In this document: positions 15,581 through 62,750 of the stretch, in pieces
Layout: each line of letters opens with the position of its first letter
Position numbering within the stretch: the stretch's first letter is position 1
Assembly: GCA_044892525.1 (NCBI GenBank)
Contig: CM097887.1
Span: 41,292,001-41,356,000, forward strand
DNA length: 64,000 nt
DNA from: Schmidtea polychroa
Taxonomy: Eukaryota
Reading direction: 5' to 3'
Translations under genes and position numbers: made by a program
Notes under the pieces: generated by a model
Database searches by the model: none
Seen by the model: only the letters and a program-made list of their open reading frames with translations
What the model was told of the DNA's origin: nothing

Positions 15581-15953
15581 GGAATCAAATGAAGAGAGGG
15601 TTGAATAACGTGGAATTAGTCCCAATATAGACTGCAGGGGTACAAACCGAGCCACCTTCGGGCGGTACGTCTTATTGCAAGAACCCGTTGGGAGGGGATA
15701 ACTGATCAACCCAAGTAAGAAGCGTAGGGCGGGGTACCATCGCATATGATGAGAAGTTTTTGCGACATGACTGATCACCATGCCAAGGTAGAAATGGATC
15801 ATCGCGATCGTCGTGCGTTTTGAGCAAGGGGGGAAAGGGGAAACACTCCCAAGCGGTAAAGATTAAGTCGACAAATTAAAAGTAGACAGAGAAAATGGTA
15901 AACTAGAGTAAAAGAAGAAAAGAGAAATAGAAGCATGCAGAGCGAGGAATATA

Positions 15954-16434
15954 GAAGATTGAGCTGTTGAATAGTGCCAGCCAGTCGTAAGATCGAGTTG
16001 TTGAATAATCCAACCGATCAGAAGGAAGAAGATTGAGCTGTTGAATAGTGCCAGCCAGTCGTAAGGTCGAGTTGTGAAAAGTCCAACCGATCAGGAAGGA
16101 GGAAGATTGAGCTGTTGAATAGTGCCAGCCAGTCGTAAGATCGAGTTGTTGAATAGTCCAACCGATCAGAAGGAAGAAGATTGAGCTGTTGAATAGTGCC
16201 AGCCAGTCGTAAGATCGAGTTGTTGAATAGTCCAACCGATCAGAAGGAAGAAGATTGAGCTGTTGAATAGTGCCAGCCAGTCGTAAGGTCGAGTTGTGAA
16301 AAGTCCAACCGATCAGGAAGGAGGAAGATTGAGCTGTTGAATAGTGCCAGCCAGTCGTAAGATCGAGTTGTTGAATAGTCTAACCGATCAGAAGGAAGAA
16401 GATTGAGCTGTTGAATAGTGCCAGCCAGTCGTAA
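15954..16434 (+). repeat. 74-bp tandem array, 6.5 copies, with A-B-A-A-B-A higher-order structure
   Basis: Units start at 15954, 16028, 16102, 16176, 16250, 16324 and 16398. B units carry ggtcgagttgtgaaaagt...caggaaggag. Confidence 0.95.
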
Positions 16435-17740: not shown

Positions 17741-18646
17741 ATGACGAATGTCGTAAAAACCGACGAGTATAAAGAGAAGTTCAGAGGAGAACCTTTCAAC
17801 GGAAACGCAAACAAGCTAGCATCGTTCATAACTAATTTTGAAGTTTATATCACTGTGTGTGGATGGACACCCGAAGCAATTAGTAAAAGGATGCCGTTGT
17901 TTTTGTGCGATAGTGCATTAGAGGTATATTTAGAAGCTAAAGAGAGAGACACGAAATTAGAAAAGTGGGAAGATATTAAAACATTCCTGAAGAAAACCTT
18001 CGGAGCCAGTAAGCCAATCAACCAGGCGTTGGGCGAACTAGCAAATAGGAAACAAAGAGCAAACGAATCGATAACATTATATGCCAGTGAATTGCGGAGA
18101 TTAGCGAAGAAAGCAATGAATGGAAAATTACCCGAAGAAAATCTGATCGGTTATTTCATAGAGGGATTACGCCGAGAAGAAGTAAGAGCCTCAGTAGGTT
18201 GTCAAATGTGCAAAACATTAGAGGAAGCCATAGATTGGGCTACAAGATGCGAGCTCCACCTTCCAGCTCAAATGAATATTATGCAAGAGGAGGGAAGGAT
18301 AGCGACAGCAATAGCGAAAGCGGATAACGGAGATAACAACAATCAAGAACCGAAAATGAATCAATTTATACCAGGAGCGCACCAAATTTTCAAACCACCA
18401 CAAGGACGATCAAACGGGAATAATGGTAATCGTAACAACCCGAATAATGAGAACAATTTCAATAATCGACGAAATATGAACGATAACAAGCAGTGCCGAA
18501 CATGCGGTAAACCAGGACACTGGGACAGAGATTGTTATAGAAATTCAAATTGTAATCGTTGCGGACGGCGTGGACATACCGAAAATGTATGCCAATTGCG
18601 AGGCTGTTTTGACTGTGGTCAGCCAGGTCACATCTCCAGAGATTGC
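17741..18646 (+). other. gag: Gag: capsid-like domain plus three CCHC zinc knuckles
   Basis: KQRANESITLYASELRRL...YFIEGL, then CRTCGKPGHWDRDC, CNRCGRRGHTENVC and CFDCGQPGHISRDC (18494-18646). Confidence 0.93.
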
Positions 18647-31594: not shown

Positions 31595-31754
31595 AAAGGA
31601 ATATGACTGTATATAATTGTAAAAAGTAAGTATATCTTATGTATATAACAGTACTATATCTTTATATAAGCGCGGTATCAATATTATACAATAACGGGAA
31701 TCATAAAATAAAATTAAATTTACATAAGAGCTGAAAAGTGTATATAAATTAGGA

Positions 31755-32114
31755 ATGGATCAAGGAAATAACGAAATGAACCACAATACAGTAACTGAAG
31801 AATTATGGAAGCAACAATGTGCCGTATTAGCACAATTAGTGTCCAATTTGCAAGAACAAGGACTGACGATGCACAGAAACCTGATCGAGAGTATGAACAG
31901 AGGATTTAGTTATTTGAAGATAATTGAAGACCAGAGGTTAAAAATCGAACAAATGCAAAGAGAGATAGAGAGGATAACCCAATATAGCCGTCGACAGGAA
32001 ATTGAAATAGACAGAATGATGGAGGAAGCAGAACAGACGGAAATAGAAGACTGGTCGGAATGGCTAATGAATAGAGAGGAGAGCGGACACGAAGCCGACT
32101 CTTCCGAACCCTAA
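31755..32114 (+). CDS. 119-aa coiled-coil accessory protein
   Basis: Same A-rich codon style as the polyprotein; heptad-like E/Q/R-rich sequence. Confidence 0.7.
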   Translation: MDQGNNEMNHNTVTEELWKQQCAVLAQLVSNLQEQGLTMHRNLIESMNRGFSYLKIIEDQRLKIEQMQREIERITQYSRRQEIEIDRMMEEAEQTEIEDWSEWLMNREESGHEADSSEP

Positions 32115-32199
32115 ACCAAACCTAGCTCAAAATGTAAATAATTGTAAATAAAATATCGAACCTGTATCGATAAGAACTATTTGTACATATAATTATAGA

Positions 32200-33588
32200 A
32201 TGGATAAACGACAAAGAGAAGAGTTCAGAGAGATTGTCGAGCAAGTCCGAAAATCTACAACGATCAGAATACACAAACATGTTATGTGCGGAATATGTGA
32301 AAAGTTGTTAAAGGAACCTCACCAAACGCAATGTGGATGCAGAGTATGTAAAGAATGTATCAGTGAAGCAATAAAGAATAGACCACAGAAGTGCCCGGTG
32401 TGTAAAGAGACACTAATATCGAGTTTAGAAGACACTAACGAGGATAAAGCCGCAGTGAAAGACATGTTAAACACCAACCTGGGATGCAAAAATGCCCCAT
32501 GCGAATGGAAAGGAGTAATATGGAAGGTAGTACAACATATGGGAGAATGTATGTACAGAATTGGCCAGTGTGAAAGGTGCCATAAAACCATTCGAGCAAG
32601 CGAAGAAAAAGAGCATCAAAGGCAGTGTGAAGAGAGATTGGAAAGATGTGAACACTGTGGAGAAATAGATACGTGGATAAATCTCACCCTCAAACATCAC
32701 AATGTCCAAGAGGAGAGAGTATGTGCGGAGTTCAGTGGGGAATGCCCAAACGGATGTAACCAAGGGGAAATAATGAAGGTGGCACAGCATCTAAGGGAAT
32801 GCGAAAAGAAAAGAATGACATGTGTACTAGGTAGATGGGGTTGTCAGAAATTACTACACCGAGGTGAGTTACCACATCATTTAGTAGAAAATGCTTCAAC
32901 TCACGCAGAAATGTGGTCGACTGCGTTACAAGAAAGCGAAGAGAAAGTAAAACAAATGGAGATAGAGATAACATCGTTGAAAGTGTTAGTCAAAGAACTA
33001 CTAGAAGAAAGGGAAGCGTTCGAAGAAGCCCGAGCAAACATAAAGATGCAAATAAACCGAACAGAAATTAGTAATAATCAGGCCAAGGAGCTACATCAGA
33101 AAATACGGGAAATAAATCTAAATGAGATAACCCCAACAGCACCCTACATATGGAAAATAACGGGAGTAAAAGAAAGAATACGAAAAGCAAAAACCGGAGA
33201 AGAGACAAGAATAACAAGTCCTACATTCCATTCTTGGAAAAATGGGTACAAAATGAAAATGAAGGTATATCCCAACGGGGACGGAACCGGATTGGATACG
33301 CACTTTTCGATTTTCTTTCTGTTATGTAAAGGAGAATACGACGAAATATTAGAATGGCCGTTCCAGGCAAAAATCGATATTACTCTGATGAACAACCAAA
33401 GTATACATGAGCAAAGCTTCAAAACAACGGGGAATCAAATAGCTTACCAGAGGCCCCTCAACGAAGAAGGATCAGCAACAGGAGCACCCACGTTCATCTC
33501 ACAACAAAGAGTGGAAGATATGGCGAGAAATGATACCATATATATCAAGATGACCGTGAGGAAAGAGGAGAAGGGTAGAACGGAATAA
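32200..33588 (+). CDS. TRAF: Full-length intronless TRAF homolog (RING, TRAF zinc fingers, coiled coil, MATH)
   Basis: CGIC...CGCRVC..C...CPVC; repeated C..C...H...C fingers; MATH motifs YIWKI, GYKMKMKVYPNGDGTGLDTHFSIFF, GEYDEILEWPF. Confidence 0.93.
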   Translation: MDKRQREEFREIVEQVRKSTTIRIHKHVMCGICEKLLKEPHQTQCGCRVCKECISEAIKNRPQKCPVCKETLISSLEDTNEDKAAVKDMLNTNLGCKNAPCEWKGVIWKVVQHMGECMYRIGQCERCHKTIRASEEKEHQRQCEERLERCEHCGEIDTWINLTLKHHNVQEERVCAEFSGECPNGCNQGEIMKVAQHLRECEKKRMTCVLGRWGCQKLLHRGELPHHLVENASTHAEMWSTALQESEEKVKQMEIEITSLKVLVKELLEEREAFEEARANIKMQINRTEISNNQAKELHQKIREINLNEITPTAPYIWKITGVKERIRKAKTGEETRITSPTFHSWKNGYKMKMKVYPNGDGTGLDTHFSIFFLLCKGEYDEILEWPFQAKIDITLMNNQSIHEQSFKTTGNQIAYQRPLNEEGSATGAPTFISQQRVEDMARNDTIYIKMTVRKEEKGRTE

Positions 33589-33726
33589 CCAATCGAATAA
33601 TGTTGTATATAATAATCTGTATATATCGGTGTATATAACCAATAAAATATTATATAATAATAGTATGAAAACCCTAAATACGAAAACCCAAAAATGATGC
33701 GAAAATTTCCCAAGAAACAGTAAATA

Positions 33727-34836
33727 ATGAATAAATTCCTTTTCATAATAAAAAGATTAATCGATGTCTATGATTTAGAGATGACACAAGAGAAAATAAC
33801 CGAAACTGCGATAGCCCCAACCAATGTCAACAAGACACAAATTCCCCGAGAACATAATAAAAAATGGAACAAAGTAATGTTCCAACTAACTAATCTCACC
33901 CGAAATCACATCGAAGAAACTAGAGAAGATGAGAATAGTCAATACCAATGGTTAATACACAACTTAAGAGCGGAAGCAGAAGCATGCAAAAGAGCATCAA
34001 AATGGGCGTCACTAGAAAATACCCGCCAAGAAGCACACAGCCACTACTTAAAGCAGCTAGTGCAGGAAGCGAGAAAAAGACTTACCGATGAGAACACCAA
34101 GCGCGAAGCGGAAAAACAAATAGAAGACAGGAAAATGATGCACTTAGTGGCAGAAGCGAGAAAATGGAAAAGACAAAACAGAGAAATGAAAAAAGAGATG
34201 AAAGAATTGCCCATGAGACTCGGATATGAAAGCGAACAAGGTAAATGGGAGGAGAATTTAATAATAAAGGAAGAATTGAAAAGGTTGAGAAAAGTCGCCG
34301 CCCGAAGCCAAACCTGGCAAACAAAGGCTATGGAGTTTGAGCGACATTTGGCAATGAAGTGCGACATAAGAGAGCACGAGAATGCCGCAATGGAAGAGAT
34401 GATAACCCAACAAGCGGGACGGGTTGTGGAATTAGTAAATCAGGTAGAAGAGATGAAAAGAGACCTTAATGGATTACAAGGATCGCTGGAACAAAGAAAC
34501 ATGGTCCTAGCGGGAAAAAACAGAAAATTAGAAAACGAAAGGAAAATGTACACCGAAAATATTAAAAACTTAGAAATAGAAATTGAAAAATGGAAGGGCG
34601 ACGAGAAAATCAAGGCCCTAGACAAACAGATAGAGGCGAAAGATGAAGAGACAAGGTATCTCACCTATCTGCTCGACGAGGAATTGAATATCACTCGAGC
34701 TCTAAGAGACGAAGTTAGTGAATTGAGAGCTCAAATTCCCCAATATTACCTACCATACGACCCTATTGCGATACAGTTACATTCCGCGGTCGATAGTGAT
34801 GAAGGTTATGTAGGCCAGGAGGAAACCTTCGTATGA
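33727..34836 (+). CDS. 369-aa long coiled-coil protein (possible start 33781)
   Basis: Open frame, E/K/R/L-rich heptads, element-like codon usage. Confidence 0.75.
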   Translation: MNKFLFIIKRLIDVYDLEMTQEKITETAIAPTNVNKTQIPREHNKKWNKVMFQLTNLTRNHIEETREDENSQYQWLIHNLRAEAEACKRASKWASLENTRQEAHSHYLKQLVQEARKRLTDENTKREAEKQIEDRKMMHLVAEARKWKRQNREMKKEMKELPMRLGYESEQGKWEENLIIKEELKRLRKVAARSQTWQTKAMEFERHLAMKCDIREHENAAMEEMITQQAGRVVELVNQVEEMKRDLNGLQGSLEQRNMVLAGKNRKLENERKMYTENIKNLEIEIEKWKGDEKIKALDKQIEAKDEETRYLTYLLDEELNITRALRDEVSELRAQIPQYYLPYDPIAIQLHSAVDSDEGYVGQEETFV

Positions 34837-34950
34837 GGGTGGATGAAAAGATGAAAAACTAAAAACCGGGACGTATATCCCAAACAAAAAAATTAAAGTA
34901 TTGTAAAAGTATTCAAGGGACTATAACCCAAACTATTAAATTTTATATCA

Positions 34951-35703
34951 ATGTATACGTATAAGTCGCACTATAGCGCACCATTAACTGTACATATTAT
35001 AGATATGAAAATCGAGGAAATGATAGAAATTATGAGCGACGTAGAAGAGGGAGAGATTGAGGCAGAAACAACAGAAACACAAACGCTAAAGGCCGAGTTA
35101 CGGGAAGAGAAATACGAAAACGGGAGATTAATAAACAAATACCTGGAGGACCGGAAAATGATAAAGGTGTTAAAGAAAGAGTGCGAAGCGTTGGGGGAAA
35201 TAAAAAGAGAAACGGAAGAGGAAAATGAATGGCTACACGAACAAAGGAAGCGAGGGAAAAACTGGGAAAAGATAGCGGAAGAGCTATGGAAAGAGAGGGC
35301 AAGCTTCAAAGCAAAGGAGGTAATCCAAGACTACTGGAAAACTGAGGCGAAGGAGCGCCAAACAGCTATAAATAAATTAAAACGACAACTAGAAGAAAAC
35401 CAACGGGAAAGTAAAGAAATGAGGAAGTGGGTTCGCAAATATAGAGAAATAGAAAGAAAACATCAACAACAAAATTACCTGCAAGAAAACGAACAAGATC
35501 TCCTACAAATCGAGCTAAAAAGAAACCTTGAAAAGAAAAGGGAAGAAATTAGACGCTTGGAAAAAGAAATTAGACATCTAAAGAGAGAAGCCCGTGAAAA
35601 AGACCGACAATTGGAAATGCTGCCCGAGTTAAGACACAGGGTAATTAAAGCAGAGTCCACCTTGATGAGAATCGGTGAAAATAATCCAAATCAGAACCAT
35701 TAA
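34951..35703 (+). CDS. 250-aa coiled-coil protein (likely start 35005)
   Basis: Open frame with E/K/R-rich heptads. The first 18 codons resemble spacer sequence. Confidence 0.75.
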   Translation: MYTYKSHYSAPLTVHIIDMKIEEMIEIMSDVEEGEIEAETTETQTLKAELREEKYENGRLINKYLEDRKMIKVLKKECEALGEIKRETEEENEWLHEQRKRGKNWEKIAEELWKERASFKAKEVIQDYWKTEAKERQTAINKLKRQLEENQRESKEMRKWVRKYREIERKHQQQNYLQENEQDLLQIELKRNLEKKREEIRRLEKEIRHLKREAREKDRQLEMLPELRHRVIKAESTLMRIGENNPNQNH

Positions 35704-35743
35704 ATTAAGGGTCATTAAAACCAATTGTAAATAAACATAATGA

Positions 35744-36412
35744 ATGTATAATAGTATCATGCGAGGCGAGATGATGATAACAATGATGGTATTGATGATT
35801 CTGATGGAGAACAAACAATTAAACGCCCAACCGAAAATCGTACGAGATTACCGCAATCAAAATCAAGAACCTAAACAAGAATCCGGCAAATGCACATACC
35901 CTATGACCGTAAAAACCCATATCATCCAAACCATTCAATCAACCCGATCCCACATCAACAACATCCAAACAATGTGTAAAAAGAACCCCATTTGTAAAAT
36001 GATAAACAAACAAATCTTCGAACAAAGCCAACAGATCGACCAGTTGGAACAACAAATGCAACAAGAGGATTTTGAAAATCTTGTAGAAAAGCCAAAAACA
36101 CCTCCCGAGATCAATGACACCCATTATCTCATATATGTGGTGATCGCAGAGACCCTCCTCCTATGTCTACCAATATTCATGAAAATTTACGAAATTCGAA
36201 ATAGATGTAGAGTCTCGACATCAATAAGAGTAACCTCGAACCAAAATCCTCAAGAAGTGCCCCTGACAAATCTTAACCCAACCCCATTCCGACCTCGAAC
36301 CCCGAGTAATCAACCAATCCAGCCGAAATCTAATAGTCAGACCTATCTCAACATCAATACCCAAACCAACCAACAGCCGCCAGCAGAAGCATCAATGGTT
36401 AACAGTTCATAA
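35744..36412 (+). CDS. 222-aa predicted type I membrane protein (signal peptide, Cys/coiled-coil ectodomain, TM, Pro/Asn-rich tail)
   Basis: MMITMMVLMILM...LNA|Q; TM YLIYVVIAETLLLCLPIFM followed by KIYEIRNR. Confidence 0.7.
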   Translation: MYNSIMRGEMMITMMVLMILMENKQLNAQPKIVRDYRNQNQEPKQESGKCTYPMTVKTHIIQTIQSTRSHINNIQTMCKKNPICKMINKQIFEQSQQIDQLEQQMQQEDFENLVEKPKTPPEINDTHYLIYVVIAETLLLCLPIFMKIYEIRNRCRVSTSIRVTSNQNPQEVPLTNLNPTPFRPRTPSNQPIQPKSNSQTYLNINTQTNQQPPAEASMVNSS

Positions 36413-36638
36413 ACTCTAACTCAAACATTTGTGTTATTATATGTGGAAACTTTTATTGTATGTACAAACTATCACCTTAAGTGATACTTGCTTGATCTTG
36501 CTTTGACCTAGATCTTACAATAAAAATTTTATCATTGTTGTATAATTGTCGTGTTCGTGTTATATTTTTTTTTTGAATGAATGAATTAAGTTAATTATGC
36601 AATTGCGGGACGCAATTTTGATGGGTCCCCGAGTGATT

Positions 36639-39600
36639 TGTTGGGCTGAGTCGAAAATTTAATCGTTGAAAAATAGGAAAGTAGGGAAGTAGAACATTAA
36701 GAAAAATAATAATAAAATAAATAAAATCAGAAATAAAATAGAATAAGATATAAGGAAAATAATAATTAAGACATAAGAATTAAAACAAAAAATAAAATTA
36801 AGAAAAGATTAAAATAGAACAAGTTGACAAATAAATAAAGAGGAATTCAAGAAATAATAAGGAAATTAAGGAAATAAATAGAAAAACATATTAAAAATAA
36901 AGAAAATAAGGAAAAAACAACCTAAAAACAAGAAAATTATATTAAATTAATAGAAATAAGCGGTACTCAACTCTGATTGGTCCGCACAAATAAGAATTTG
37001 ATATATATACAACTACCAAAAACATTAAATTTACTGTTAACCCCGAGCATTTCATAGGTAAGAAAAATGTTTACTGTTTTTACTGTTAACCCCGAGCATT
37101 TCATAGGATCGACACTACTAGCCAAGCAACCGTCATTCAGAAAACTCCACAACTATTCAAAACCAGTTCAGAGACCGAAATACCATTCATCACAATAATC
37201 GACATCCAACGGACCACCATTAGAACTATTTGGAACGAACAACATTGAATTTTGACTCAGCCTAACAATAGTAAGGGGTATTTCATTTGTTTATAGATTT
37301 ATTTAAGTATTTGCAAAGCTAATAATAATGTTAAATATTAACGATTAAACATTTTAGTTAACTCTCTTCATTTGATTCTCCATTTTAATAACTTTAACGT
37401 ATTGATGGAATTTGTATTATTTAAGTATTTCCGAATCAATAAAATATTTTAATCCAGATGTCCGTATTTTATTTGAATTAAAGATTTTATGAATTTTCAT
37501 TTAACGAGTAACGTGGAGTTGAGATACTCCATGTCATGGTATGAGGTGCCTTCGGGAGCTCAGCCGGTGGACATGGAGTATTTCAATCGCGCAGCTAGAT
37601 TGGGCCGAAATGTGAAGGCTTCTTCACGGGTCCTATCGCTGAAGATGCGACTAAATTATCACAATGGGGTATGGATAAAAAATAACCGGTAGACAATGAT
37701 TTCACAAAGATAGTCATACGAATGAAGGGATTTTCAAGGATTTGCACAGTGATTGAGGGCGTCGCATTCTTCTTTCGTCAAGTCGTTTTCGTAAATCTTA
37801 CCCCTATTGAAAAATGAGATCCAGACAACGATTTAGTGAACTTCGTCAAAAATAACGACATCTCATAGTACGCTTCATCTGGAAACATGGTTTTATCAAA
37901 TTAATTGCGACAACGTCTATTTGCCGGACTCAGTAGAACTAAATTCGTATGAAATTCCATTATCATAGACCCAATGTCATCTAACCTGTCCAGATTGTAT
38001 GTCAAGTTACGTAAGTATTCTAAAAACTTTGACTAACTCGAAACTATAAAATGCGAGATTCTACGAAAACCCTCTCTAATATTATAATCAGAAAGTTTTT
38101 ATAGACTTAGTTATTTCAAAAATTATAAACAGGTAAAATATCACCAAATTTAATTAATAACATTTATTTCTACAATAAGAGCCAGGTCATCACTGTATAT
38201 ATCCAAATTATTGAACCTGAGAGAAAAGGACAGGTTTCATCGAGACGGCATTACATCTGAATAGGAAAATCCGAGTAGAATGACGAGAGTAGTAATTTGC
38301 TCCAGTATTTGGTAGAATTATTCCCTCGACGATCACAGAAAAGATCCAATAAATTTCCAAACGATGGTGATCATTCACACAAGTTGATAAGGGTAAAATT
38401 CCGCGATGAGAACTGGCGGTAGCATAAATCATAACTCAAATAGATCACTGTGCAGAGAAAATCATACGACAGCAGGATCGATAAAATCACCGTGAAAATG
38501 GCATACACCAAGTGAGTGAGATAAGATAGTAGCCATACGCGAATCCATGTGGTGAGAGCACAAAATATCAGACTAGCATACATAATAGTCGCGACACGTG
38601 ACATTCACAATAGGTCGATAATGTAATCAACTAGTCGACAGTAGTATCCGTAAATTTGGACATGTGTTATGACCGATGAGATATCCCATGAGGGTGTTAA
38701 AGTAATGGCTGATGTAAACTCATCACATATTTTCAGACCAATGGTAGACAACATAGATAATCACATTCACTACCGAATTAAAAGTGCACTTCCAATAACA
38801 AATTTCGAATCAAAAAATATGTTGAGAATAGCGATAGTAATTTGTTTGTAATAAATTAAAATAGATAACATATAGCAAGGTTTGGTCGCATACTATAATG
38901 TCCCTCTACTAAAGCATTATTATATTGTTTCACCAATATTATATTTACCCCCTATTAATTATTACGCCCCTCATGTATACGGTTAGATCAATAGAGAGTC
39001 AAAGTTAATAACATGCGTCAAACCGAGGGCATTTGGTTAAATAAACTGTTTTAACAACTAAGATCCGTAGTAAAACCGGATGGTAGAATAAGTTTTCCTT
39101 CTGTTCGACGGTCAAGTATCCACGAATGGACGCGGGTCGTATCTAATTTATTCTAAAATCGTATGTTCTCCATTTCATTAGTATTATTTATAGCAAGCAT
39201 GCTACCAGCCACTAAATCGGCATTACGGCCGTGCTTCTCGTGCGCGGATAAAAATACGGTGATAAAGGACCTACAGACTCAGATTGGACGTTACAAGAGG
39301 AAGATAGACGAGCTGGAAGGGACATGGTTTAGTCCCGCTCGGATGAAAGAGATCCAAAAGAAGCTCGATCGTAGCGAGCATTGCCGGGACGCGCTAATAT
39401 CTGAGAGCCGTGCCCAAAGAAGTCTAATCAGAGAACAATCCGAGGCACTGCATAAGGTTTACGTGCAGGCGGCTACAACCCGAAAAATCGTGCAGATTCC
39501 CATCCGAGAGGCCGATGACATCTTTCCGCCTCATCACAACCTTTCCTCGAATCCATCTCCACCGTTCAAGAGACCGTGCCGAGACTGCGTCGAAACCGAA

Positions 39601-40485
39601 TGGTCCCCCAAGCGTCCAGATGTTGTCATCACGGGTACCAGTAAGCCCCCCACTGCTAGTCCATCTGTATCAGTCACCCTTCTGCAAGTGGCATCTTCAA
39701 GCAAACCCAAGCGCAAACAACTCTCTCGTGCAGAGCGCAAGAAGAGACAGCGCGAGCGCGCTACTGCAAAGCCAAACATCCCATCAATAGAGGACTCAAC
39801 TAACGGTGGCAACTCTCACGTGTCCATCGACCTAACAACGGGACCCTCAGCGCGAATCATATCAGCCGCTGGCGTAAGGTGGGAAGAGAACGCTTCCGAG
39901 TTTTTCAACCTCGACGAATTATTCGCCGACACTGAATGGGAGAAACAATAAAACCCCAGTGGCGGTCAGGATGAGGAACAAGGATCCGATCTATGTTGAT
40001 TATGATGTTTTCTCTTCTTTCGACAAACATTAGTAAAGTGTACAGCTGAATCCTTGTGTCATAACGTTGAAATTAATAAATCTTGTTGTCTTACACGTTT
40101 TCGTTCATGAATAATTAGACTTTAATTAAGTGGGTTGAGTAGAGAACCCGCAAGATCTAGTGAGAATTTCCCAATTTGCATTCAGCGAATCCTGATAGGT
40201 GGTTGTGTAAGGAAATGGACGTAAGCCCTTCTATCGGCAGTCGTGAATGGGAAGTCGAGGCCTCAGCAAGGAGTAGTTTTAAGGCAGAAGCTCACCTGCT
40301 TGCTGGCGTCTCGCCTGCATAGTGCAGTACCAACGTGAAGTGATTCACGGGCACTATGTTGGAAGAAAGTTATGTGGGGTTTCACTCCAGGTTGACAAAT
40401 CGGTGGCACCTTTTATTCGAGATGGACAATCAACCCTTAGACCCGCCAACATGGTAGAATGGTCAGCCGAGGTGTGACCCCAACA
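36639..40485 (+). repeat. 3' LTR (3,847 bp)
   Basis: Copy of 10685-14531, followed by the AAAT TSD. Confidence 0.97.
39163..39951 (+). CDS. LTR-encoded ORF, 3' copy
   Basis: Translation identical to 13209-13997. Confidence 0.7.
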   Translation: MFSISLVLFIASMLPATKSALRPCFSCADKNTVIKDLQTQIGRYKRKIDELEGTWFSPARMKEIQKKLDRSEHCRDALISESRAQRSLIREQSEALHKVYVQAATTRKIVQIPIREADDIFPPHHNLSSNPSPPFKRPCRDCVETEWSPKRPDVVITGTSKPPTASPSVSVTLLQVASSSKPKRKQLSRAERKKRQRERATAKPNIPSIEDSTNGGNSHVSIDLTTGPSARIISAAGVRWEENASEFFNLDELFADTEWEKQ

Positions 40486-52293: not shown

Positions 52294-54390
52294 TATTAGA
52301 TAATAAAAAATTGATTTTGGATTTAATTATTAAATTATAATTTCTATGGAAGAAAAGAAGTAATATAAAAAACCACTTCACTGATAAAAATGTATACGAT
52401 TCCACGCCTAGTTGAGGTGATGACAGTAAACTACTTAGCTCCATTTCAAACAGAAGAGTTAAAAATTAGTGCAAAAATTAAATTAAAGGCAAAAATAAAC
52501 CTTAGAATTAGAGAGACAGTGGTTTTAAAAGGGCGAAACGTACAAAGTATATGATAAAATTATCAAAATATCTGTAGTAATTGAGGAATATTTACCGGAA
52601 TTGAGAGGATTTAAAGGAGTTTTCGATGATGATGCAGAAAAGTTAAAGACACACCTATTTTATTAGATAAACCAGTGGCCAAACTGTAGAATTCATCCTT
52701 GTCTGTGATGTCAAAACCAACGGATGTAATTTAGCACATTAAAAACTATGACTTTCAAAGAATTTAGTGAAAGCGGTTTAGAGAAAAGCCAGATAATTTC
52801 AAAATGTACTACAAAACAAATATAACAATTAGATCTACAGCAATAGTCTTAATATCGACATTGCCAACTGATAGCATGCATTTTATGAAAAAGGATATCA
52901 CCAACAAATGTGGTCAAAAGATATATGCAACGAATTATTGATTACTAGAATTCACACGTTATACTAAACTCCACATCATTTTAACAATAAAATTAACTAT
53001 TTGTTTTATTTTAGTCAGAACATCATTTAAAATTGTTAAAAAATGATATTAAATGATTGTAAGCTAAATAACGAAATACTCTGAAATCGAATGGCAATGA
53101 CTATTACGAACCACAATTTAGTCGTACTCATGTTTATATTCAATAATGGTGTATTTGCTAGAATCTTTGCATTTATAACCGTAGTGCTTCTCCAAAGAAG
53201 TAACAGTAAAAATTATGAAGTATGAAAAATTTACAGTTGAATAGCCAGTTGATGAGCGTGGATGGGATAATACGATTTATGGAACTAATAACACGAGTGT
53301 TATCTGAAGATCACCGAATCCAATAATTCTTGAGTCCATTAAATTGCTCGCTCAGTTATATTACCTGATAACATTTTCGGGAACTATTTATACAACATTA
53401 CAATAATGATACATACAAAACATTACATAACTTCCCCATTTAAAACCGAAGGTTGACATGTTTATATATAAAAATTTGTACATAGTATCTATTTCATTTA
53501 TCTTTTTTATTGTCTTTGTGTTTGATTTGTAGTGTAGCGTGTATGATACAATCAACAGGTAGGGAAAAAACATAAATATTGTAGTTTACAACTGTATAAG
53601 TGATTTATTTTAGTTTATTTATTTATGCTGTTTTATTTGAAGCAGTCACTGTAATGCTTCCTGTATGTGTTTGGGATAAAGGTGTTTTTTACCGTACGCT
53701 CGTAATGGTTCGTTGTTGTTGACTGAAATGTTTTTGTTGATGTTTGGTGCATTATTTGTAGTTGGTTCTGTTTTGTGATAGCGTTTTAATCTGCAAATGT
53801 TTATTCGCCTTTCTGTTGAGGTCTCTGTAAATGGGGGTCGTGATCTCAACTATGCATCACTGATAATTCTTAACTATGTATATATAAATAAGAATAAAGA
53901 CTTTATATCTTTATGAAAAATTTATTAAAAACAAAAGTTACTCGCTAAAATAAAATGAGAATTAGTCTTGTACAGTAAAATTTTCAAGCTTGATGCGTGT
54001 ATGCTTTTGTTCTCTGAAAGTGGGTGCGTGTTATATTGTGCGTGCTAAAAACTTGTTTATTTGACTGAAATCATTTTCAAATTTCGTTCTGAATTTGTAT
54101 TGGGTTTGGATTGGGTTTTTACTTCCTCTTACTGCAGATATTCGCTCTAAATTTTTTCGCCCAGTTCTGTAGTCACTTGTCAGAACCTTCCCCTATAATC
54201 TAACATTTGTTGTTTATTATATTGTAATCACGTTTTTATTTAGCTCGAGAAAATTGTATGGGATTTGATTCTTACTGAATCAGAACATATTTAGTGATTA
54301 ATATGGTTTTTCCGTATGTTTTTGGCGTTTGTTTATTTTTTAGTATTCCTTTTAGTTTCAACTTGCTGTTTTTTGTTAGTTGTTCTATTG

Positions 54391-54636
54391 CATGGGTATT
54401 CAACTAAATATTATGAAGGGCCAAATTTTTCTTATAACGGCAATCGAGGGCCGTATCAATTAAAAAGTAGTTAGTTTTGTAGCGGATTACAAAGTCTTAA
54501 GGTCAAATATTATACATAAAAAAGTACCTGTGCGTTTTTATGCAGATATCACCAAATATTTTTATATATGTTTTATATATATTTCAAATTTCGGCGGGCC
54601 TGATCAGGCCCGCGGGCCGCCAGTTGAATATCCCTG
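54391..54636. mobile_element. hAT MITE with perfect 8-bp TSD, inserted in the decayed element
   Basis: CATGGGTATTCAACT / AGTTGAATATCCCTG; TSD TTCTATTG on both sides. Confidence 0.9.
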
Positions 54637-56824
54637 TTCTATTGGTTCGTTGTATTTTTTGTTTGTCTTTAGTGATGGCAGGTTTGTTTCTACCAAAAAC
54701 GTTGCAGGACGGACTTTCGTGATCTTGTTGTTGGATTGTTGGTAGATGCTCTAACTAATATCTGTCTTCCACTTATGTTCGTAAGCTTTCATTATTGTTC
54801 TGTGTAGTCTTTCTATTTCCTCATTTGCAGATTGTAAGCGGTTGTTCTATTTTTTGCATAATATATCGAAAAGGTGTGATTCGTATTGTGTTCCCTGGTC
54901 AGTGAACATTGTTTTAATTTGGCCTTAACGGGATGTCCAATTTAGGTCTATGTTGTCGCATATGTTTGGTAGAGATTTCGTCCATGGAAACGGGTGAATT
55001 TGATCTCAACTCTATCCTGTTCTTTTCGAAACATGTCAATGAGTGAACACTGATGGATGATCAAAATCGACAGTTTGTTTGAAACTACGATGCCATGCTT
55101 CCACCGAATTATTTGTTCGAGGAAGACCATCTGCCTTTCTGTTTGCTACAAGCTGTAGTATTAAATTAGTATCCGTGATCCGTAATATCTCATAAGGGCC
55201 TTTAAAATTTCGCATAAGTTGGTTTGGTTAGCCATTGTAGAGGCCCATGATCGGTGTAAGCTATTATCTTGCGACTCCATAAATACGTTCTGAATTGGCT
55301 TATAGCGTAGACAATCGCTAAAGCCTCTGGCATAATTTTTTTCGTGTGGCTTTAATCCTCTGCTGACATTTGCGATCGCATATTTATCGCCTAAGTCATC
55401 TCTCTGACCTAGTACAGCACTAATTCCCCGAGTCCAGGTATCTGTCATGACCAAAAATAGTTTCTCAAAATCTGGAAATCGTAGAATAGGATGTTGAGTG
55501 TATCAAACGCTTCTTGCTGTTTTGAACCCCAAATAAATTTGAAGTCTTCCCTTCTAACTGGGTAACAGGAAACGCTATTGCTGAAAAGTTTCTAATAAAT
55601 TTTCAGTAGTATCCCATCAAGCTCAAAAAGCCTTTAAAATGCTTCACGGTTTTTTACTCTGGAAATCTTTGACCTTTTCAACATTTGCTGGATCTGGTTT
55701 TACTCTGTCTTTTGAGATAATGTACTCAACATACACAACCTTTGATTCGGTTCATTTACATTTGCTAGGCTTTACCTTTAAATTGGCATTAATTAATTTC
55801 TTAGACACATCTTCGAGATATTCCAAATGTTTCTCCAAAGATGGTGAAAAGACAATGATCTCGTCAATATATACCACTGCGTAATGAACGTTCAATTGCA
55901 TAAAGTTCATTGCTATCTGAAACGTTGCTGGTGCTCCACTTGAGACCGAATAGCATGACATTGTATTCATAATGTCCCACACTGGTTGAAAAAACTGTAA
56001 TTGGAATAGGCTCGTCCTTTAGCTTGATTTGATAAAACCCTTTCTGGTCGTCCATTACTGAGCAATATTTGGCCTTTCTCATTCGGCCGTATATGTAAGC
56101 CAACAATGGCAACGAGTGGCTATCCTTGCAAGTAGCTTCGTTGACCATTCGATAGTCGTTACACAATCTCACTGACCCGCCTTTCTTTGCCACTACCATC
56201 ATAGATGATCGATATGGTGACTTGCTGTGTTTCAACATGAATTTGACCTGTTTATGGACTGATTCCTCCAAACTGATTTCGTATTTCCTCAATAACATGT
56301 TAACTTTGATATTTTCTCTTTTGTTAGAGTTTTACTATTGGCAATAGCATCATAATATTGAATATCTGCCTTCATTGTTAGTATAGATCCCTGGTTATCT
56401 AGCGACTGGGATCCGCTAGGTTGTGATATCCTTCCAACTAAAGTAACTGGGTAACTTTAATGGTTTAATATCTAAGTTGGCTACTCTTATGGGTATTCTT
56501 CCATTTACCACTTTGCCGACGCTATTCGTGATAGATACATCATATTTTCCCGATAAACTCTGATTGGGTTTGAACCCTCTATCTCCCATTGTTTACTTGT
56601 CGCTGCGAAACAGATTGTTACTTCCTGTTGTGATTTGGTTCTGCTTAACTGATGAGGAATTGTTGTCATTGTAAGGACTGGATATGACTGCAGTTGCAGC
56701 TAACAACATTAATTGTTCGTGGGAATTAGTTCGAGATAGTGGTGTTTCATTATGCTGAACTCTAGTAGCTGGCTTATTCACATCTTTCATAATTTCTATA
56801 TTGTTTGCTCTACAATAATTGTAT

Positions 56825-57000
56825 CCATCTGCACCGATAATCAGAGTGACTGATGAAGGATTTTCTTTAATTCTTTTAACAACTTATTGATGGTTTTCGT
56901 CACGAACATAGAAGCCGGCGTGACCGATAATTTGACCGGGTTTATTGGCTTCAGAACGTAAATTAAATCCATAGCCTTCAAAATCATTTCTTTTCAGAAG
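56825..57000 (-). pseudogene. NHERF/PDZK1-like PDZ domain fragment
   Basis: GYGFNLRSEANKPGQII versus NHERF PDZ2 GYGFNLHSDKSKPGQFI; ENHQ*VVKRIK; the middle of the domain is missing. Confidence 0.7.
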
Positions 57001-60000
57001 AGTGCGCAATCGGCATGGCAACAGAATGGCGTATCTATTAAAAATTCCAACCACCCATAAAATTGTCAATTGATGGTTTATATGTTGATTTGAATGAGTT
57101 CGGCTTAATAAATTCCAAACTTCCATTTCATTTGATGAAAATCTCTTTGTTACATCATCTTCTATAATAGCTTCTATAAATCTTTATCCAGTAAGAACAC
57201 CAACTGTACCACCAACTAAATTTGTAGATAAAATAAAGAAGTAATAAGGTAGTAATATAGCTAAAAATGGAACAATAGAAAGCATTAGAGCTGAGGATTT
57301 TTAAATTATTAAATCAAAATTATGACATTCTTAATATTAAAACAACATGTTTTTTCTCAAATCAACATAATGTTTTTAAGAACTAAAAAATAACAAAATG
57401 GTTTTTTAAACTGCTTTCATTACAATCGCAATAAATGTTTTTCTTCATTTTCCCGAAATTATCAAACGCCTGCAAAATCACTACACTTCTCTTGCTGGAA
57501 TAATTGTTGTATGATCGATGAATACCGTGTCATCGTTGTAAATTTTCCTTTTTTTGCCAATTGATCTAACTAATTTTCCTGTCGTACAATCGAACACAAC
57601 TCCTTTCAGCTTCTTTAGGATTTCCATTCCTAGAAGATATTCTGCTGGTAGACTCCGCATTACAATAATGTCGTGGTGCAACCCCTGATCGCATTATTTA
57701 ATTTTACATGGTAACTTTCCGAGAATGTTCATAGTGAATTCTGTAGCTCCAGCTAACAAAACATCTGCTCTCTGTAATGATTCTAATTCCTTTTGATTTA
57801 ATAGTTTTGCTTCAATAATGGTTTCGTCTTCTCCTGAATCGATTACCGCATTTATTGTATGCCGGTTTACTTTTATCTTTATTCTCAAGGTTTACTGCCT
57901 GGTTTACCATCATAATGGTACCGTTCCATATACTGAGTGTCTTTGCTCTGAGTATGTCCGGGTCTGCCTGCTTGATATCGCTTACTTGTGGATCATATTC
58001 TTGGTATAGGGCCTTGATAATTTCCAAAACTTCGTTAGCATAATGTATTACTTCGAACTTAGATAATGTTGATGGCATAGAATCGTCCATTAGACATTAA
58101 TTGCATGATGATTATCTTTATTATCACCTTGATTCCGTAAATATATGAACAACTGGCGACAAAAATACAGAAATTGGTAAATCGTCCCAAAATCTTCATC
58201 ATCACGTTTTTGGCTGCTTCTTTGTAATGCTCAGGCCCAAATAATAGATTATAGTTTGGCTGTATCTCATGTGCCTGAAAGATGGTTCTGATGATTTCTA
58301 TTATACCTCTTTCCCTAACTTGGTGGAATAACAGCGTCCTTATAGCTTCTTCCATCTCACCTGGAGTATACATTCCCCCTATTGAGAGTTCATTTAATGA
58401 TTTGAATTCTACATTGGATTCCAAATTTGTAGCTTGGAGCGCTTCGACCTTTTGGACTGACGGCTTTATTTCCGATAAAGATATCCATTTATTATTTATT
58501 TTGTATAGTGGAGATATTGCCGACTTACATATTGTTGGTTGTGGCTTTTCTTTTTCTTCCAACAACTTTCTTGTTACTGGCATAACGAACGTAACTTACC
58601 TTGGTATGGCACATGTAGTTCTAAAGTACATTGGTTGAACCTTGCCAACTGAACCTCTACCGGTTTTCGCTCATAGCTGTAAATAGCTTCCCCATAATTC
58701 GATCAAACGTCTTCCAATAGCATAGGAGTTACCAATTCTGGGTTTACAATTGATATTGCTAACCTGTTTCTAACAATCTATCGATTAAGCTTGCACTCGT
58801 TTAATATCACTTCCTGATATATTTCCCGGACTTTTCATAGCAAATCATGGTACATATAGTCTATTTTGTTGTTTATGAAATTCCTGATTTTGATATCCTT
58901 TATTTACAATGCCTTGGCCGCTGGTATATATTCTTTAGATAGGAAAAGTCCTTTATAATTTGTTTCATACACTGCTTTTCACCATTTCACTGTCTTTTCT
59001 TTTCTAGTGAATCTGATGGCTTCTGTTTTATCGTCTGATACCAAAACAAGAGGCATATTTTCTTTGCTAATGCCCTTTTCCCCTGCTTTTTAATTCTCCT
59101 CAATGTCTTTGCTTTGTATCAAACATGCTCTGGATTTGGTGCATCTCTATACCTGACCAGAACCAACTCACAATGATAACTTATTGGTTCATATAAGAGC
59201 GTGGTAGTTCCAGTTTTGCATTTTCCGAACTTTGCCAACCAATGTTGATGTGCCATCAACTTTCCTGTGGTGACTTCGAAAGTTCCATCATATTCTCACA
59301 GGTCGATTGAATAATCCTCGATATCTCCCACGAAATATACTAGATCTCTCCCTCTGACTTTCTCTCGTCCTTCGCAAGTTCCGTCGGGTCCAATGGTTCC
59401 CCCACGAGTAATGGTTACTCCTACGGTCTTACCGACTTCCGCTGTCAGTGACACTTCATTATCAATTCGTAAGGTTCCTGATTGAAACGCATCTTGACAA
59501 TCCTCTGGTTGTATTGTTACAGGCTAGGGTATTAAAGTTGCTGATGAGAAAGCCGAATAGCTGTGACTACGGTAATAATACTCAAACGTAGCTCTCTGCA
59601 CTCTGGCATTCCTTTGTTGTTCTAAAAAATTCGCTTTCTTGGTAATAATAATGCATTGTCTTATCTCACAAATGCACTTTCTCTGAATACGCTTCCTTAC
59701 ACTCGATTGCATCTGCATCTACTAACGAATATATTCGATTTAATTTTGGGTCACTACAGTCAAATTCTGTCAATGAACTAGTTTGTTTTAATATGCCAAT
59801 CATTACTAGGAACATCAGGATTATGCTTGTCATATTTCCAGTTCCTAAATTTCCGTTATTCATTGCTTCTTCCACGAACTCATAATGTGATTTTGGGTGG
59901 GCTACCTTGACCAAGAATCTATTGGCCGTCATCCAGACTTCGACATAATAATCTACCAATTCAACCATTTGACCTATCCCTCGATTTATAAATCTTTTAT

Positions 60001-61460
60001 CTCCTGCTCGGGCTAAGACATTTTGGATCATCATAGACAGCGATGTTAACACATTCCCTCTTGTTAAATCTTGCTGCACGAATACCTCTATTGCATCTTG
60101 ATTTTTTCGTGATGGGATATCCTTTTATAGTTTATTCATTGTCTTCCTGATTACTGATTATTTTATTAACTTCAATTCCTTTTATCTTCAGAATCTTATA
60201 TTATGGCTTAATATTTCCGACTTTTTGTTGTAGTATTTGCCACAGCGATCTTTATGGTATCGTTTCTACTATCGCCTGTTCATCTGCCTCTTGCGCTATA
60301 CCTGCTAGGGTTTTCATTTGAACCTTTCGAATTGTTTCTTGATTTATCTGGTTCCTTGGTAGAGGCTCCATTTGGTCTTTTCTAGAACGACCTCGTCCAT
60401 CTTTTTTTGGTTTCGCCGGAGGTTTTACGGGCTCCAGTTTTTTACTGCTTGTGGCATGGCTGCTCCCAAGTTTGTTTCCTCTGGATTCAAATTAACGTAT
60501 TCCGAGAAATAATCTTCATCGTCAGTATCCACATATTGACGTGGATCAATTTCGTCTAATATTATTTCCTCAATCAAATCGACTATTTCCTCTACCTTGT
60601 CTGGTAGACACAATAATGACCGTTGTGACTCAAGTGTTGTTACTGGGATAATCATTAGCATCATTGTTTCGATCGGTAGAAATTCTACGTCCTCTAGATA
60701 TTCGTCGCCGTCCACTTGCCTTCCGTCGATCATTATCAGGAATACGGCTGTTGTTTTCCTCATCAGTGCCTCTATTTGCGTTTAAAATTGGCTCGACTCC
60801 TTTACTATAGGTACATAATTGGAATTATCGCTCCCAACATCTCCATAGGTATTCGTAATACTAGCATCCAGTTTAGAATCCATCTTGTGGAGACTTTTGT
60901 AATTCCAACCCTAGTCGCTGGCTTAATTGTTGAGATTCCTCCAACTGCTCAATTTCCATTTGCGTGATCAAGAATACACTGTCTTGATTCGCTACTGCAA
61001 CTGACTTCTGCGCCCTTTTTCTGCGGTGAATTTTGTCAGCCTACCGAGAAGTATTCTGTTCTGTAGAAATGTTTCGCTTGTCAATAGCTTTGTTCCACAT
61101 AGGTACAAATCATAGCATTAATGTTTTCTACCCTTCAATGTTTCTACTAGTTTATCTGCTCGACATCTCATATTTATGTCGAGATTATAGTCTTTATCCT
61201 ATGCAAGTTTTATATTGAGCTGGGCATCTTGTAGATGTTCCAAAGCTTCTCCTAGTTTCTTTAAATTTTCTGCGTGTCTTTATGATATTTTGGATCATAA
61301 CCGACTTGTGATATCAGTTTTACTACCGTATCAATCTCACTATTTTTAATTTCTGTTTTTGTCAAATTCTCCAATTGTCGAGCCAGCTTCTGCTGATACT
61401 CGTATCTGGAATTCACAATATGCCCATTGATGATTTTTGATCACACTGGGCTCACCAAAA

Positions 61461-62074
61461 TGTTAGGTTCATATGTGGGTTGTGCGACTAGCACACTCAC
61501 TCGATCTGACTCCAAGGGTATATGTTCGATTCATCAAAACAACAACTCAACTTTTATTAAACTTCTATGAAATATAAATACAAAATATGTATAGTAAAAT
61601 GTGATGTGGATATTTATAAATTTTTATTTATCAATAAAGTTTTATCAGGTGATTCCACAATGTATCCTGGCATTGCTGGTCGTTTACAAAAAGAAATATC
61701 AGCTTTGGCTCCACCAACAATAAAAATTAAACATGGTAGCAGAGAGTGGTTCCCTTTGGTTGCTAAGTACCAGTTAAGATTATGATAGACCAGGTGAAGG
61801 AGCTTCCAGAATTGTTCCAGCTTCACCATGTTAAAGGTTTATGAACTTTATTACACTCTTATGTTAATTTCTTTGATCGAGGAAAATCAAAGCCGGGAGG
61901 CGGATCATTGGAGCGCAGATATTTTGGCGGGATTTCTAATGTGAATCTGTTGAATTATTCTATGAAATGTACGTTTTATAGATGGGCAGAGCGGGACAAC
62001 TTTGAAGGAGGGATAAGGTGATCTGATTTTTAGATGGGCAAAGCGGGACAACTTTGAAGACGGGGTTATCAACA
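61461..62074 (-). repeat. Putative 5' LTR of the decayed element (outer boundary uncertain)
   Basis: TGTT...AACA ends; PBS 3 nt beyond the minus-strand 3' end; AATAAA on the minus strand near 61553; 28-bp direct repeat at 61980/62032. Confidence 0.5.
61591..61731 (+). pseudogene. actin: Actin gene fragment (about residues 282-328)
   Basis: [47 protein letters not shown] versus actin [47 protein letters not shown]. Confidence 0.9.
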
Positions 62075-62369
62075 AAAGTTTTCATATAGAATAAAAATAA
62101 TATGGTAATATTTTTTGATTTTTAACATATGTACAATTTTTATAAATATAAAAAATTGTATAATATTTTATTCCTTGACATATTTTTTATTTGAGTGAAT
62201 TTGTTTGTTGTCATTTTTTAAAATATTGTAAAATCTTCACAAGAATTTGTCAAATTATATTTGACACTTAAAATTTTATATTTATGAAAATCATTGTTTT
62301 GCATTCTAAGAATCCTACGGACTACTAAGATTAACATATTGCTTTTCTTATTGTAATATTTATTTGTTT

Positions 62370-62750
62370 AATTAGCTTCCTACCACGCAGTACGAACACA
62401 AAGTGTATCATCTGAGAAACAAATACAATGTAACTGGGTAAGAAAGCAATATGTCTTATATAATCCTTAGACCCTAATATATGCAAGACAAAAATATAGT
62501 AGGCTAGCTACTATATAAGGCGGTGAGTTTGCAGGTGTGCCTTTTTTGAGGTGATTCTGGTAGGTTTTCCTCGAGGCTTCTATTGTTGTAATGTCGCCGA
62601 AGGAACATTTGATGTCTATTATCATTATTGTATCTTTCAATCGAACGACAATATCTGGTTTCACCATTTCTTTGGCCTCTTTAGGTCTAGTTTCACTTTA
62701 AGATTCACTCACTTGCTTCCGAGTAAATCTTCAAGGGCTTTCTGTATTTC
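62370..62750 (-). pseudogene. 3' remnant of an RLE-type (R2/NeSL-like) non-LTR retrotransposon
   Basis: VKPDIVVRLKDTIMIIDIKCSF (PD-(D/E)xK endonuclease) and IVASL. Confidence 0.6.

What the first reader, a model, noticed from the sequence alone, without database searches (positions are those of the whole stretch)
53646..62074. An old, divergent second element preserves the same Ubl-Bcl2-glycoprotein-Pol order
The proteins are clearly homologous yet very diverged (EFKSLNELSIGGMYTPGEME vs DFKPIDVSNGGMYSPEDLE; PNYNLLFGPEHY vs PNYELLLSPDHF; EEIILDEID vs EEIILEDSD). The PBS is different (TGGTGAGCCC) and the putative LTR is short. This shows that env-before-pol is an ancient, diversified lineage and not a one-off rearrangement. 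I could not find capsid/CCHC remnants or a 3' LTR.
Basis: partly seen in the sequence, partly recalled or inferred. Interest (0 to 1): 0.72.

Follow-up and report, generated by a model that had tools for sequence, protein, structure and literature searches.

The report
Decayed envelope-first retrotransposon copy
This is a broken old copy of a compact, virus-like jumping gene that puts its envelope gene ahead of its copying enzymes, an arrangement already reported for planarian flatworm elements, so it adds a family member rather than a new kind of element.

Summary
Window 61589-55129 (minus strand) is one collinear, internally deleted Ty3/Gypsy copy: LTR end, tRNA-Trp PBS, two ubiquitin-like remnants, a Bcl-2-like region, a chuvirus/gB-type Env, then PR, RT, RNase H and an integrase tip. 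It belongs to an old subfamily of a 14.8-kb family (B) that still has young copies. It is 71% (Env) and 78% (RT) identical to B, but 31% and 42% to the 29.8-kb giant in this window. Capsid, CCHC and integrase core are deleted. The finding's ends (53646-55128, 61590-62074) and an 860-bp insert are unrelated sequence, the LTR is truncated rather than short, and the EEIILDEID match is at chance level. Env evolved under purifying selection; this copy then decayed by about 7-8%. The conclusion is already in print: Ubl-BCL2-Env-PR in Burro (PMC6431247) and GAG-ENV-POL gB-type elements, six of them planarian (PMC13524379). Not found in my searches: that the compact families share Burro's Ubl/Bcl-2 cargo, prime on tRNA-Trp, and encode a second predicted membrane protein after integrase. 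The scan noted a Burro-like giant elsewhere in this genome before (e1-7879936), not this family.

The parts
61461..61589 (-). 3' end of the 5' LTR (remnant, ends ...CCTAACA); the rest of the LTR is lost
   Evidence: 80.6% to an old-subfamily copy over 61589-61414; 72-80% to young family-B LTR ends
61440..61457 (-). primer-binding site for tRNA-Trp(CCA)
   Evidence: 15/18 to the host tRNA-Trp 3' end; young family B 18/18
61414..61416 (-). junction of a ~1.33-kb deletion that removed capsid and CCHC knuckles
   Evidence: blastn gap against 5 of 5 young copies; Pfam gag/CCHC in the missing part; bridged by contigs
61028..61228 (-). ubiquitin-like domain 1 (with stops)
   Evidence: Ubl profile iE 1.9e-5; 63% to family B
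60638..60757 (-). C-terminal half of ubiquitin-like domain 2; first half deleted (49 codons)
   Evidence: Ubl profile iE 2.6e-5; gap; the family-B counterpart folds as a beta-grasp, pLDDT 92.8
59885..60124 (-). Bcl-2-like region (degenerate; weak evidence)
   Evidence: profile from the other families scores it at iE 0.0028; hhalign 75% probability vs 0.1% reversed; own fold inconclusive
59801..59833 (-). hydrophobic segment, predicted internal signal peptide of Env
   Evidence: hydropathy of the family-B counterpart; position
58071..59773 (-). chuvirus-like / gB-type Env (PF24664), broken by stops and frameshifts, cut off inside its membrane anchor by a ~550-nt deletion
   Evidence: Pfam E=1e-16 on an open piece; 71% to family B, 31% to the giant; HSPs
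57490..57882 (-). aspartic protease (D-S-G motif at 57846-57832)
   Evidence: 70% to family B; motif position
56626..57485 (-). 860-bp insertion, solo-LTR-like (TG...CA, 5-bp target duplication with one mismatch), from another repeat family; not part of the element
   Evidence: 165 candidates, 40 scored, parts up to 96% identical; ends; absent from the old C2:149 Mb copy
55229..56292 (-). reverse transcriptase and RNase H, broken; RT N-terminus partly deleted
   Evidence: Pfam RVT_1 E=7.7e-9; 78% to family B, 42% to the giant
55129..55221 (-). integrase C-terminal tip after a ~1.3-kb deletion of the zinc finger and core; the element is truncated here
   Evidence: 87% over 31 aa to family B; blastn gap
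54985..55131 (-). internal piece of a MULE transposase; not part of the element
   Evidence: 83-86% to a MULE ORF elsewhere (Pfam MULE)
54635..54979 (-). integrase core of a different Gypsy lineage; not part of the element
   Evidence: 70-74% to other loci; 66-67% to family C, whose copies show gag-pol ORFs only
54390..54645 (.). MITE-like interspersed repeat; not part of the element
   Evidence: 801 candidates, 40 scored, 83-92%
53420..54385 (-). 3' region, polypurine tract and LTR start of that other Gypsy lineage, with a further small repeat inside; not part of the element
   Evidence: the same loci match both its IN piece and this stretch, e.g. C1:44.706 Mb; PPT/LTR start 53460-53420
61591..61838 (+). 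actin-like pseudogene fragment (multi-copy); not LTR
   Evidence: 183 candidates, 40 scored, 76-85%; none of 3 loci read continues into the family-B LTR; the actin label is recalled from the peptide
61975..62454 (.). interspersed repeat with internal inverted arms; not LTR
   Evidence: 833 candidates, 40 scored, main matches 78-92%
10684..40485 (+). reference: the 29.8-kb Burro-like giant (identical 3,848-bp LTRs, tRNA-Pro PBS, 4,732-codon ORF 17396-31594)

Best explanation
The stretch 61589-55129 is a dead, internally deleted copy of a compact Ty3/Gypsy retrotransposon family whose frame reads Gag, two ubiquitin-like domains, a likely Bcl-2-like domain, a chuvirus/gB-type envelope protein, and then protease, reverse transcriptase, RNase H and integrase. 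Shown: the order, the family, the PBS, the deletions and the nested insertions. Inferred for the once-active element: RNA primed by tRNA-Trp is reverse-transcribed and integrated with a 4-bp target duplication. One polyprotein is made; a hydrophobic segment before Env likely acts as an internal signal peptide and the one after it as a stop-transfer anchor, so that Gag and Pol stay cytosolic while Env is luminal, and signal peptidase plus the element's own protease would release the parts. Env likely let particles pass between cells; the Ubl and Bcl-2-like cargo may have dampened host degradation or apoptosis (untested). Inferred history: the subfamily split from today's family B while active, this copy inserted, accumulated about 7-8% neutral change, took up a solo LTR, and lost gag, the integrase core and both ends by deletions that left it abutting other transposon debris. 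The relic itself cannot move or make Env.
For: Collinearity with 5 of 5 young copies over the 5' part and 4 of 5 over pol. Domain order in families B, D, E and the giant; one 3,334-codon frame in 2 of 2 D copies read. Relic vs young B differs at 0.11-0.14 of second but 0.38-0.51 of third codon positions, Env included (purifying selection); relic vs the old C2:149 Mb copy differs evenly at 0.12-0.18 (neutral decay); 20 stops in 1,576 aligned codons give about 7%. Ubl: profile hits ubiquilin UBL at E=7e-9, fold pLDDT 92.8 matching ubiquitin/ISG15. Hydrophobic segments flank Env in B, D and E. The same order is described for Burro (PMC6431247) and for gB-type GAG-ENV-POL elements (PMC13524379).
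Against: The Bcl-2 label is weak for family B: no Pfam hit in B or the relic, only sub-threshold hits in E (1.1e-4), D (0.014) and the giant (0.026); best PDB profile hit E=0.02; model pLDDT 45.8 with no Foldseek match under E 0.001. None of the 5 young B copies read has an unbroken frame end to end, so a single frame for B is inferred from family D. Topology rests on a simple hydropathy scan, and the segment before the giant's Env fell below its threshold. No particle, cleavage or infection data exist here. No target duplication or 3' LTR survives to delimit the relic.
Confidence: 0.88

Rival explanations
1. The pieces are unrelated nested insertions that line up by chance.
For: True for the ends and one insert: MULE piece, foreign integrase, two MITE-like repeats, actin-like fragment and a solo LTR make up about a third of the span.
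Against: The core aligns in order and strand to single young copies at 65-79% nucleotide identity and to an old copy at 74-83%.
Confidence: 0.03
2. The relic is simply a decayed copy of present-day family B, not a separate old subfamily.
For: Same PBS, same order, 72% nucleotide identity to 28 long matches; RT tree leaves B, relic and the old copy unresolved.
Against: The strong third-position excess against young B and the flat pattern against the C2:149 Mb copy require divergence under selection before the decay.
Confidence: 0.06
3. The relic's Env or Bcl-2-like region has been domesticated by the host.
For: A 152-codon and a 178-codon open stretch remain.
Against: Env carries 9 stops in 554 aligned codons, several frameshifts, and 4 of 15 cysteines are changed; decay is even across codon positions.
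Confidence: 0.02

Closest known systems
Planarian GAG-ENV-POL HSV/gB-type errantiviruses, Smed_errantivirus_1-6 (PMC13524379, eLife 2026; closest: Smed_errantivirus_4)
   Same: Ty3/gypsy pol, gB-type/chuvirus-like Env placed before pol, listed spans of 14.5-18 kb. By eye against the paper's supplementary Env rows: family B resembles Smed_4 (43 of the first 63 residues, hand count), D resembles Smed_2 (4 differences in 251, hand count), E Smed_1, the giant Smed_5.
   Different: This locus is a decayed copy of an older sister subfamily. The paper's main text has no occurrence of 'Burro', 'ubiquitin' or 'Bcl' and lists no primer tRNA for the six; here B, D and E carry the tRNA-Trp-type PBS and the giant tRNA-Pro.
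Burro / GYPSM1 giant Gypsy elements of planarians (PMC6431247, section read in full; Grohme et al. 2018 not held)
   Same: Gag-CCHC, Ubi2/SUMO-like, BCL2-like, in-frame Env, PR-RT-RH-IN in one frame; RT clade shared with the giant in this window (SH-aLRT 96).
   Different: Family B is 14.8 kb with 1.0-1.6-kb LTRs, not over 30 kb; no ankyrin, MATH, BIR or RING hit in the five B open stretches scanned; two Ubls rather than the giant's three; different primer tRNA.
Anakin (BEL/Pao with a chuvirus glycoprotein; PMC7642597, passages)
   Same: LTR retrotransposon carrying a chuvirus-like glycoprotein.
   Different: BEL/Pao rather than Ty3/Gypsy; a BEL/Pao-linked G (P0094, DUF5641) falls outside the clade of polyprotein-embedded Envs, so likely an independent capture.

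Membership tests
Ty3/Gypsy LTR retrotransposon | pol order PR-RT-RH-IN | tested here: met
   relic collinear; complete in family B
Ty3/Gypsy LTR retrotransposon | LTRs (TG...CA), PBS, PPT, target-site duplication | tested here: met
   family: LTR pairs 97-100% in 4 of 5 copies, PPT, 4-bp duplications; relic keeps only the LTR end and PBS
Ty3/Gypsy LTR retrotransposon | RT placed among named Ty3/Gypsy references | not tested
   trees used only session sequences; no named references were available
GAG-ENV-POL HSV/gB-type errantivirus (PMC13524379) | env between gag and pol | tested here: met
   families B, D, E, giant; relic Env precedes PR
GAG-ENV-POL HSV/gB-type errantivirus (PMC13524379) | gB-type / chuvirus-like Env | tested here: met
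   PF24664 E=2e-86 in B, 1e-16 in a relic piece; next hits are ~650-aa free glycoproteins at about 25%. The gB fold itself was not modelled
GAG-ENV-POL HSV/gB-type errantivirus (PMC13524379) | C1a cysteine-bridge pattern and trimeric five-domain fold | not tested
   only cysteine counts taken: 14-15 per ectodomain; both fold jobs went to Ubl and Bcl-2
GAG-ENV-POL HSV/gB-type errantivirus (PMC13524379) | intact ORFs in several near-identical copies | tested here: inconclusive
   relic: not met; family B: gag in 40 of 40 scored places at 96-100% but 0 of 5 copies read is unbroken end to end
Burro (strict sense) | giant size, over 30 kb with a ~4,900-aa polyprotein | tested here: not met
   family B is about 14.8 kb; the window's giant is 29.8 kb
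Burro (strict sense) | Ubl then BCL2-like then in-frame Env before PR | tested here: met
   Ubl strong; Bcl-2-like weak but in register
Burro (strict sense) | ankyrin, MATH/TRAF, BIR, RING cargo | tested here: not met
   no such Pfam hit in the five family-B stretches; ankyrin, MATH and RING present in the giant
Bcl-2 protein family (cargo) | Bcl-2 fold with BH1/BH2 motifs | tested here: inconclusive
   59 of the 60 PDB rows shown are Bcl-2 family but best E=0.02; model pLDDT 45.8; Atlas gave no Bcl-2 lead

The most novel reading that the evidence does not exclude
Burro and the compact planarian errantiviruses are one virus-like lineage with a two-protein envelope cut from a single polyprotein: a gB-type fusogen threaded in before Pol and a second, FN3-like membrane protein after integrase serving as the attachment partner, with ubiquitin-like and Bcl-2-like cargo as host-control modules. 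The relic dates an extinct wave of that lineage.
Probability: 0.25. Interest if true: 0.62.

Novelty: new member of a known kind. Interest (0 to 1): 0.3.

Why it matters
The relic itself matters little. It is useful as a pointer: it led to three compact (14.5-17.8 kb) families that share the Burro core, which suggests the giants grew from, or the compact forms shrank to, a common Gag-Ubl-Ubl-Bcl-2-Env-Pol scaffold. It gives codon-level evidence that Env was kept under selection in an extinct subfamily. The compact families are an easier natural system than 30-kb Burro for asking how a retrotransposon threads an envelope protein out of the middle of a Gag-Pol polyprotein, and what the second predicted membrane protein does.

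Tried and rejected
EEIILDEID/EEIILEDSD as homology evidence: rejected. 61590-62074 as LTR: rejected. 53646-55128 as the element's 3' part: rejected. The relic nested in family C (gag at 64241-62764): unlikely, since that gag is 83% but the IN piece only 66-67% identical to family C; not excluded. Mis-assembly: rejected with the caveat that the runs may be the assembly's own sample. Bcl-2 fold for family B: low-confidence model, no significant Foldseek match; the wide structural search was busy and not run; homolog search with the Bcl-2-like alignment found 0 of 1,585 candidates. Family-B ORF2 (763 aa) looked exonuclease-like by eye (recalled motif) but had no significant Pfam or PDB hit. The post-integrase ectodomain had no PDB hit. 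One clade for all 13 env-before-pol RT rows: neither shown nor rejected, p-AU 0.25. One RT row (oth_L055) was the relic itself and was dropped. Grohme et al. 2018 was not held; Repbase and Sacco et al. 2022 were not seen. Years of age were not estimated: no calibrated rate.
Full report
Setting. The window is G000:C3:41292001-41356000. It holds a young 29.8-kb LTR element at 10684-40485 with identical 3,848-bp LTRs and a 4,732-codon frame. Pfam reads that frame as gag, CCHC, Monjiviricetes fusion glycoprotein (PF24664), PR, RT, RNase H, integrase, ankyrin. I call it the giant. That the host is a planarian-like flatworm is an inference from the elements' relatives in print.

Observation. tBLASTn of the giant's protein on 41000-64000 gives minus-strand hits in order Env (59818-58152), PR (57882-57490), RT/RH (56292-55229), IN C-terminus (55242-55141); the reversed region gave none at E<0.05. 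The giant's N-terminal half found nothing in the relic, and the EEIILDEID match (6 of 9) is reached by 88 of 100 local shuffles, so the Ubl and Bcl-2 claims needed other evidence.

The family. A genome search with 57900-61700 gave 611 candidates; among the 40 scored, 28 long matches lie at 70-72% and several fragments at 73-83%. Five of the former were read: four have LTR pairs at 97-100% enclosing about 14.8 kb, the fifth stops after Env. This family B reads gag, CCHC, Env, PR, RT, RH, IN; its gag matched 40 of 40 scored places at 96-100%. The relic aligns to it in order from the LTR end to 55129 with gaps at 61415 (~1.33 kb, capsid and CCHC), 60755 (49 codons), 58072 (~550 nt), the RT N-terminus, and 55221 (~1.3 kb, integrase zinc finger and core). 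That explains the missing capsid. Its PBS matches host tRNA-Trp at 15 of 18, young B at 18 of 18; the giant matches tRNA-Pro at 18 of 18.

What does not belong. 56626-57485 is a solo-LTR-like insertion. Below 55129 come a MULE transposase piece, the integrase core and 3' end of another Gypsy lineage, and a MITE-like repeat. Above 61589 come a multi-copy actin-like fragment and another repeat. About 5,594 of 8,429 bases are family-B derived. Contigs of two runs from one study bridge all junctions; they may be the assembly's own sample.

Cargo. A profile of nine candidate Ubl segments from four families hits ubiquilin UBL at E=7e-9 and all 60 PDB rows shown are ubiquitin-fold proteins or fusions. 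Family B's second Ubl folds at pLDDT 92.8 and matches ubiquitin and ISG15. The profile finds two remnants in the relic. Bcl-2 is weaker: sub-threshold Pfam hits in E (1.1e-4), D (0.014) and the giant (0.026), none in B or the relic; 59 of 60 PDB rows shown are Bcl-2 family but the best is E=0.02. A profile built without B scores B at iE 0.001 and the relic at 0.003 in the same position, 7 of 19 targets in all, and hhalign gives 75% against 0.1% reversed. The fold model is low-confidence and uninformative. So the region is likely a degenerate Bcl-2 homologue; this is not proven.

Age and selection. Against young B the relic differs at 0.11-0.14 of second and 0.38-0.51 of third codon positions, Env included; against the old C2:149 Mb copy it differs evenly at 0.12-0.18. 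So the subfamily diverged under purifying selection and both copies then decayed by about 6-9% each. Twenty stops in 1,576 aligned codons give about 7% independently; low-identity columns were filtered out and AT-biased mutation would inflate this figure.

Breadth. PF24664 gave 2,581 candidates in the genome, 68 scored. The 30 loci returned belong to a third family, D (45% to B, 37% to the giant), with a 3,334-codon frame; a fourth, E, is 14.5 kb. B, D and E share the tRNA-Trp-type PBS; 4-bp target duplications flank copies of all four families. In public protein collections, 10 of 20 scanned hits have Env followed by protease, and P0012 has the whole compact layout. In an Env tree the 20 rows from such polyproteins or their fragments form one clade (SH-aLRT 99) apart from 16 other glycoproteins picked from the 150 listed of 1,360 hits. 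The RT tree repeats ((D,E),(P0012,(B,relic))) and joins 11 rows including the giant (96), but P0027 and P0028 fall outside three other Gypsy RTs and one clade is neither shown nor rejected (p-AU 0.25). No named references were in either tree.

Mechanism. In B, D and E hydrophobic segments flank Env, and after integrase a further signal-like segment begins a domain that ends in a second hydrophobic segment in B, D and the giant. The simplest reading, inferred and untested, is a single polyprotein with Gag and Pol cytosolic and Env luminal, cut by signal peptidase and the element's protease, like the structural polyproteins of flavi- and alphaviruses (recalled analogy). The relic has lost the means for any of this.

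What is known. PMC6431247 (section 7 read whole) describes Ubi2/SUMO-like, BCL2 and in-frame Env between gag and pol in Burro, and decayed Burro fragments in another planarian. PMC13524379 (passages, section 14, supplements 1, 2 and 6 searched) reports GAG-ENV-POL elements with gB-type Env in nematodes, bryozoans and flatworms, non-monophyletic, six of them in Schmidtea mediterranea; by eye Smed_errantivirus_4 is family B's counterpart. PMC7642597 and PMC10084718 (passages) cover BEL/Pao captures; PMC11410931 and PMC8532177 (passages) only mention Burro. Eight answered searches turned up no paper linking the compact elements to Burro's Ubl/Bcl-2 cargo, giving their primer tRNA, or noting the second membrane protein. 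Grohme et al. 2018, Sacco et al. 2022, Repbase and the eLife figures were not seen and may cover these points.

Verdict. A real but ordinary relic of a known kind of element. Novelty: new member of a known kind. Interest 0.3.

Noticed in passing
families B, D, E, window giant (aa ~4399-4680 of ORF 17396-31594), P0012, P0014, P0016: After integrase each frame has a signal-like hydrophobic segment, a ~260-340-aa domain and (except E, where it was not seen) a second hydrophobic segment: a predicted second membrane protein. Only D and E align significantly; Atlas gives an FN3 lead at 0.82, which is a lead only. Lost from the relic.
   Followed up: partly
family D (L104/L105) vs PMC13524379 supplement row Smed_errantivirus_2: Only 4 of 251 Env residues differ by hand count, whereas family B differs from its best Smed counterpart by about a third. 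Could reflect recent horizontal transfer or incomplete listing in the paper.
   Followed up: no
window 52375-53360 (+): A further Env relic on the opposite strand, 68% to family E: a third env-bearing family within this window.
   Followed up: partly
window 62764-64000 (-), continuing to 64241: Gag of a ~6.4-kb Gypsy family (C), 83% to many copies.
   Followed up: partly
window 13203-13994 and 39157-39948; 14853-15356; 32152-36412: The giant's LTR holds a 264-codon ORF of unknown function; a RING ORF follows the PBS, and RING-MATH (TRAF-like) plus three more ORFs lie before the 3' LTR.
   Followed up: no
G000:C4:55.02 Mb and G000:C1:130.9 Mb: Long tandem tRNA arrays: tRNA-Trp at a 284-bp period (821 pattern matches genome-wide) and tRNA-Pro at a 475-bp period (2,164 matches).
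   Followed up: no
just beyond the window, G000:C3 window-equivalent 64421-76146: A 5.5-kb inverted duplication at 98.6% identity.
   Followed up: no
L013:61-2349 (family-B ORF2, 763 aa): Separate ORF before the 3' LTR with an N-terminal hydrophobic segment; no significant Pfam or PDB hit.
   Followed up: partly
P0013, P0016, P0017, P0018, P0021, P0025: Metagenome relatives appear to carry two or more tandem aspartic-protease domains after Env.
   Followed up: no
window 6375-7655 (+): 426-codon open frame with no Pfam hit.
   Followed up: no
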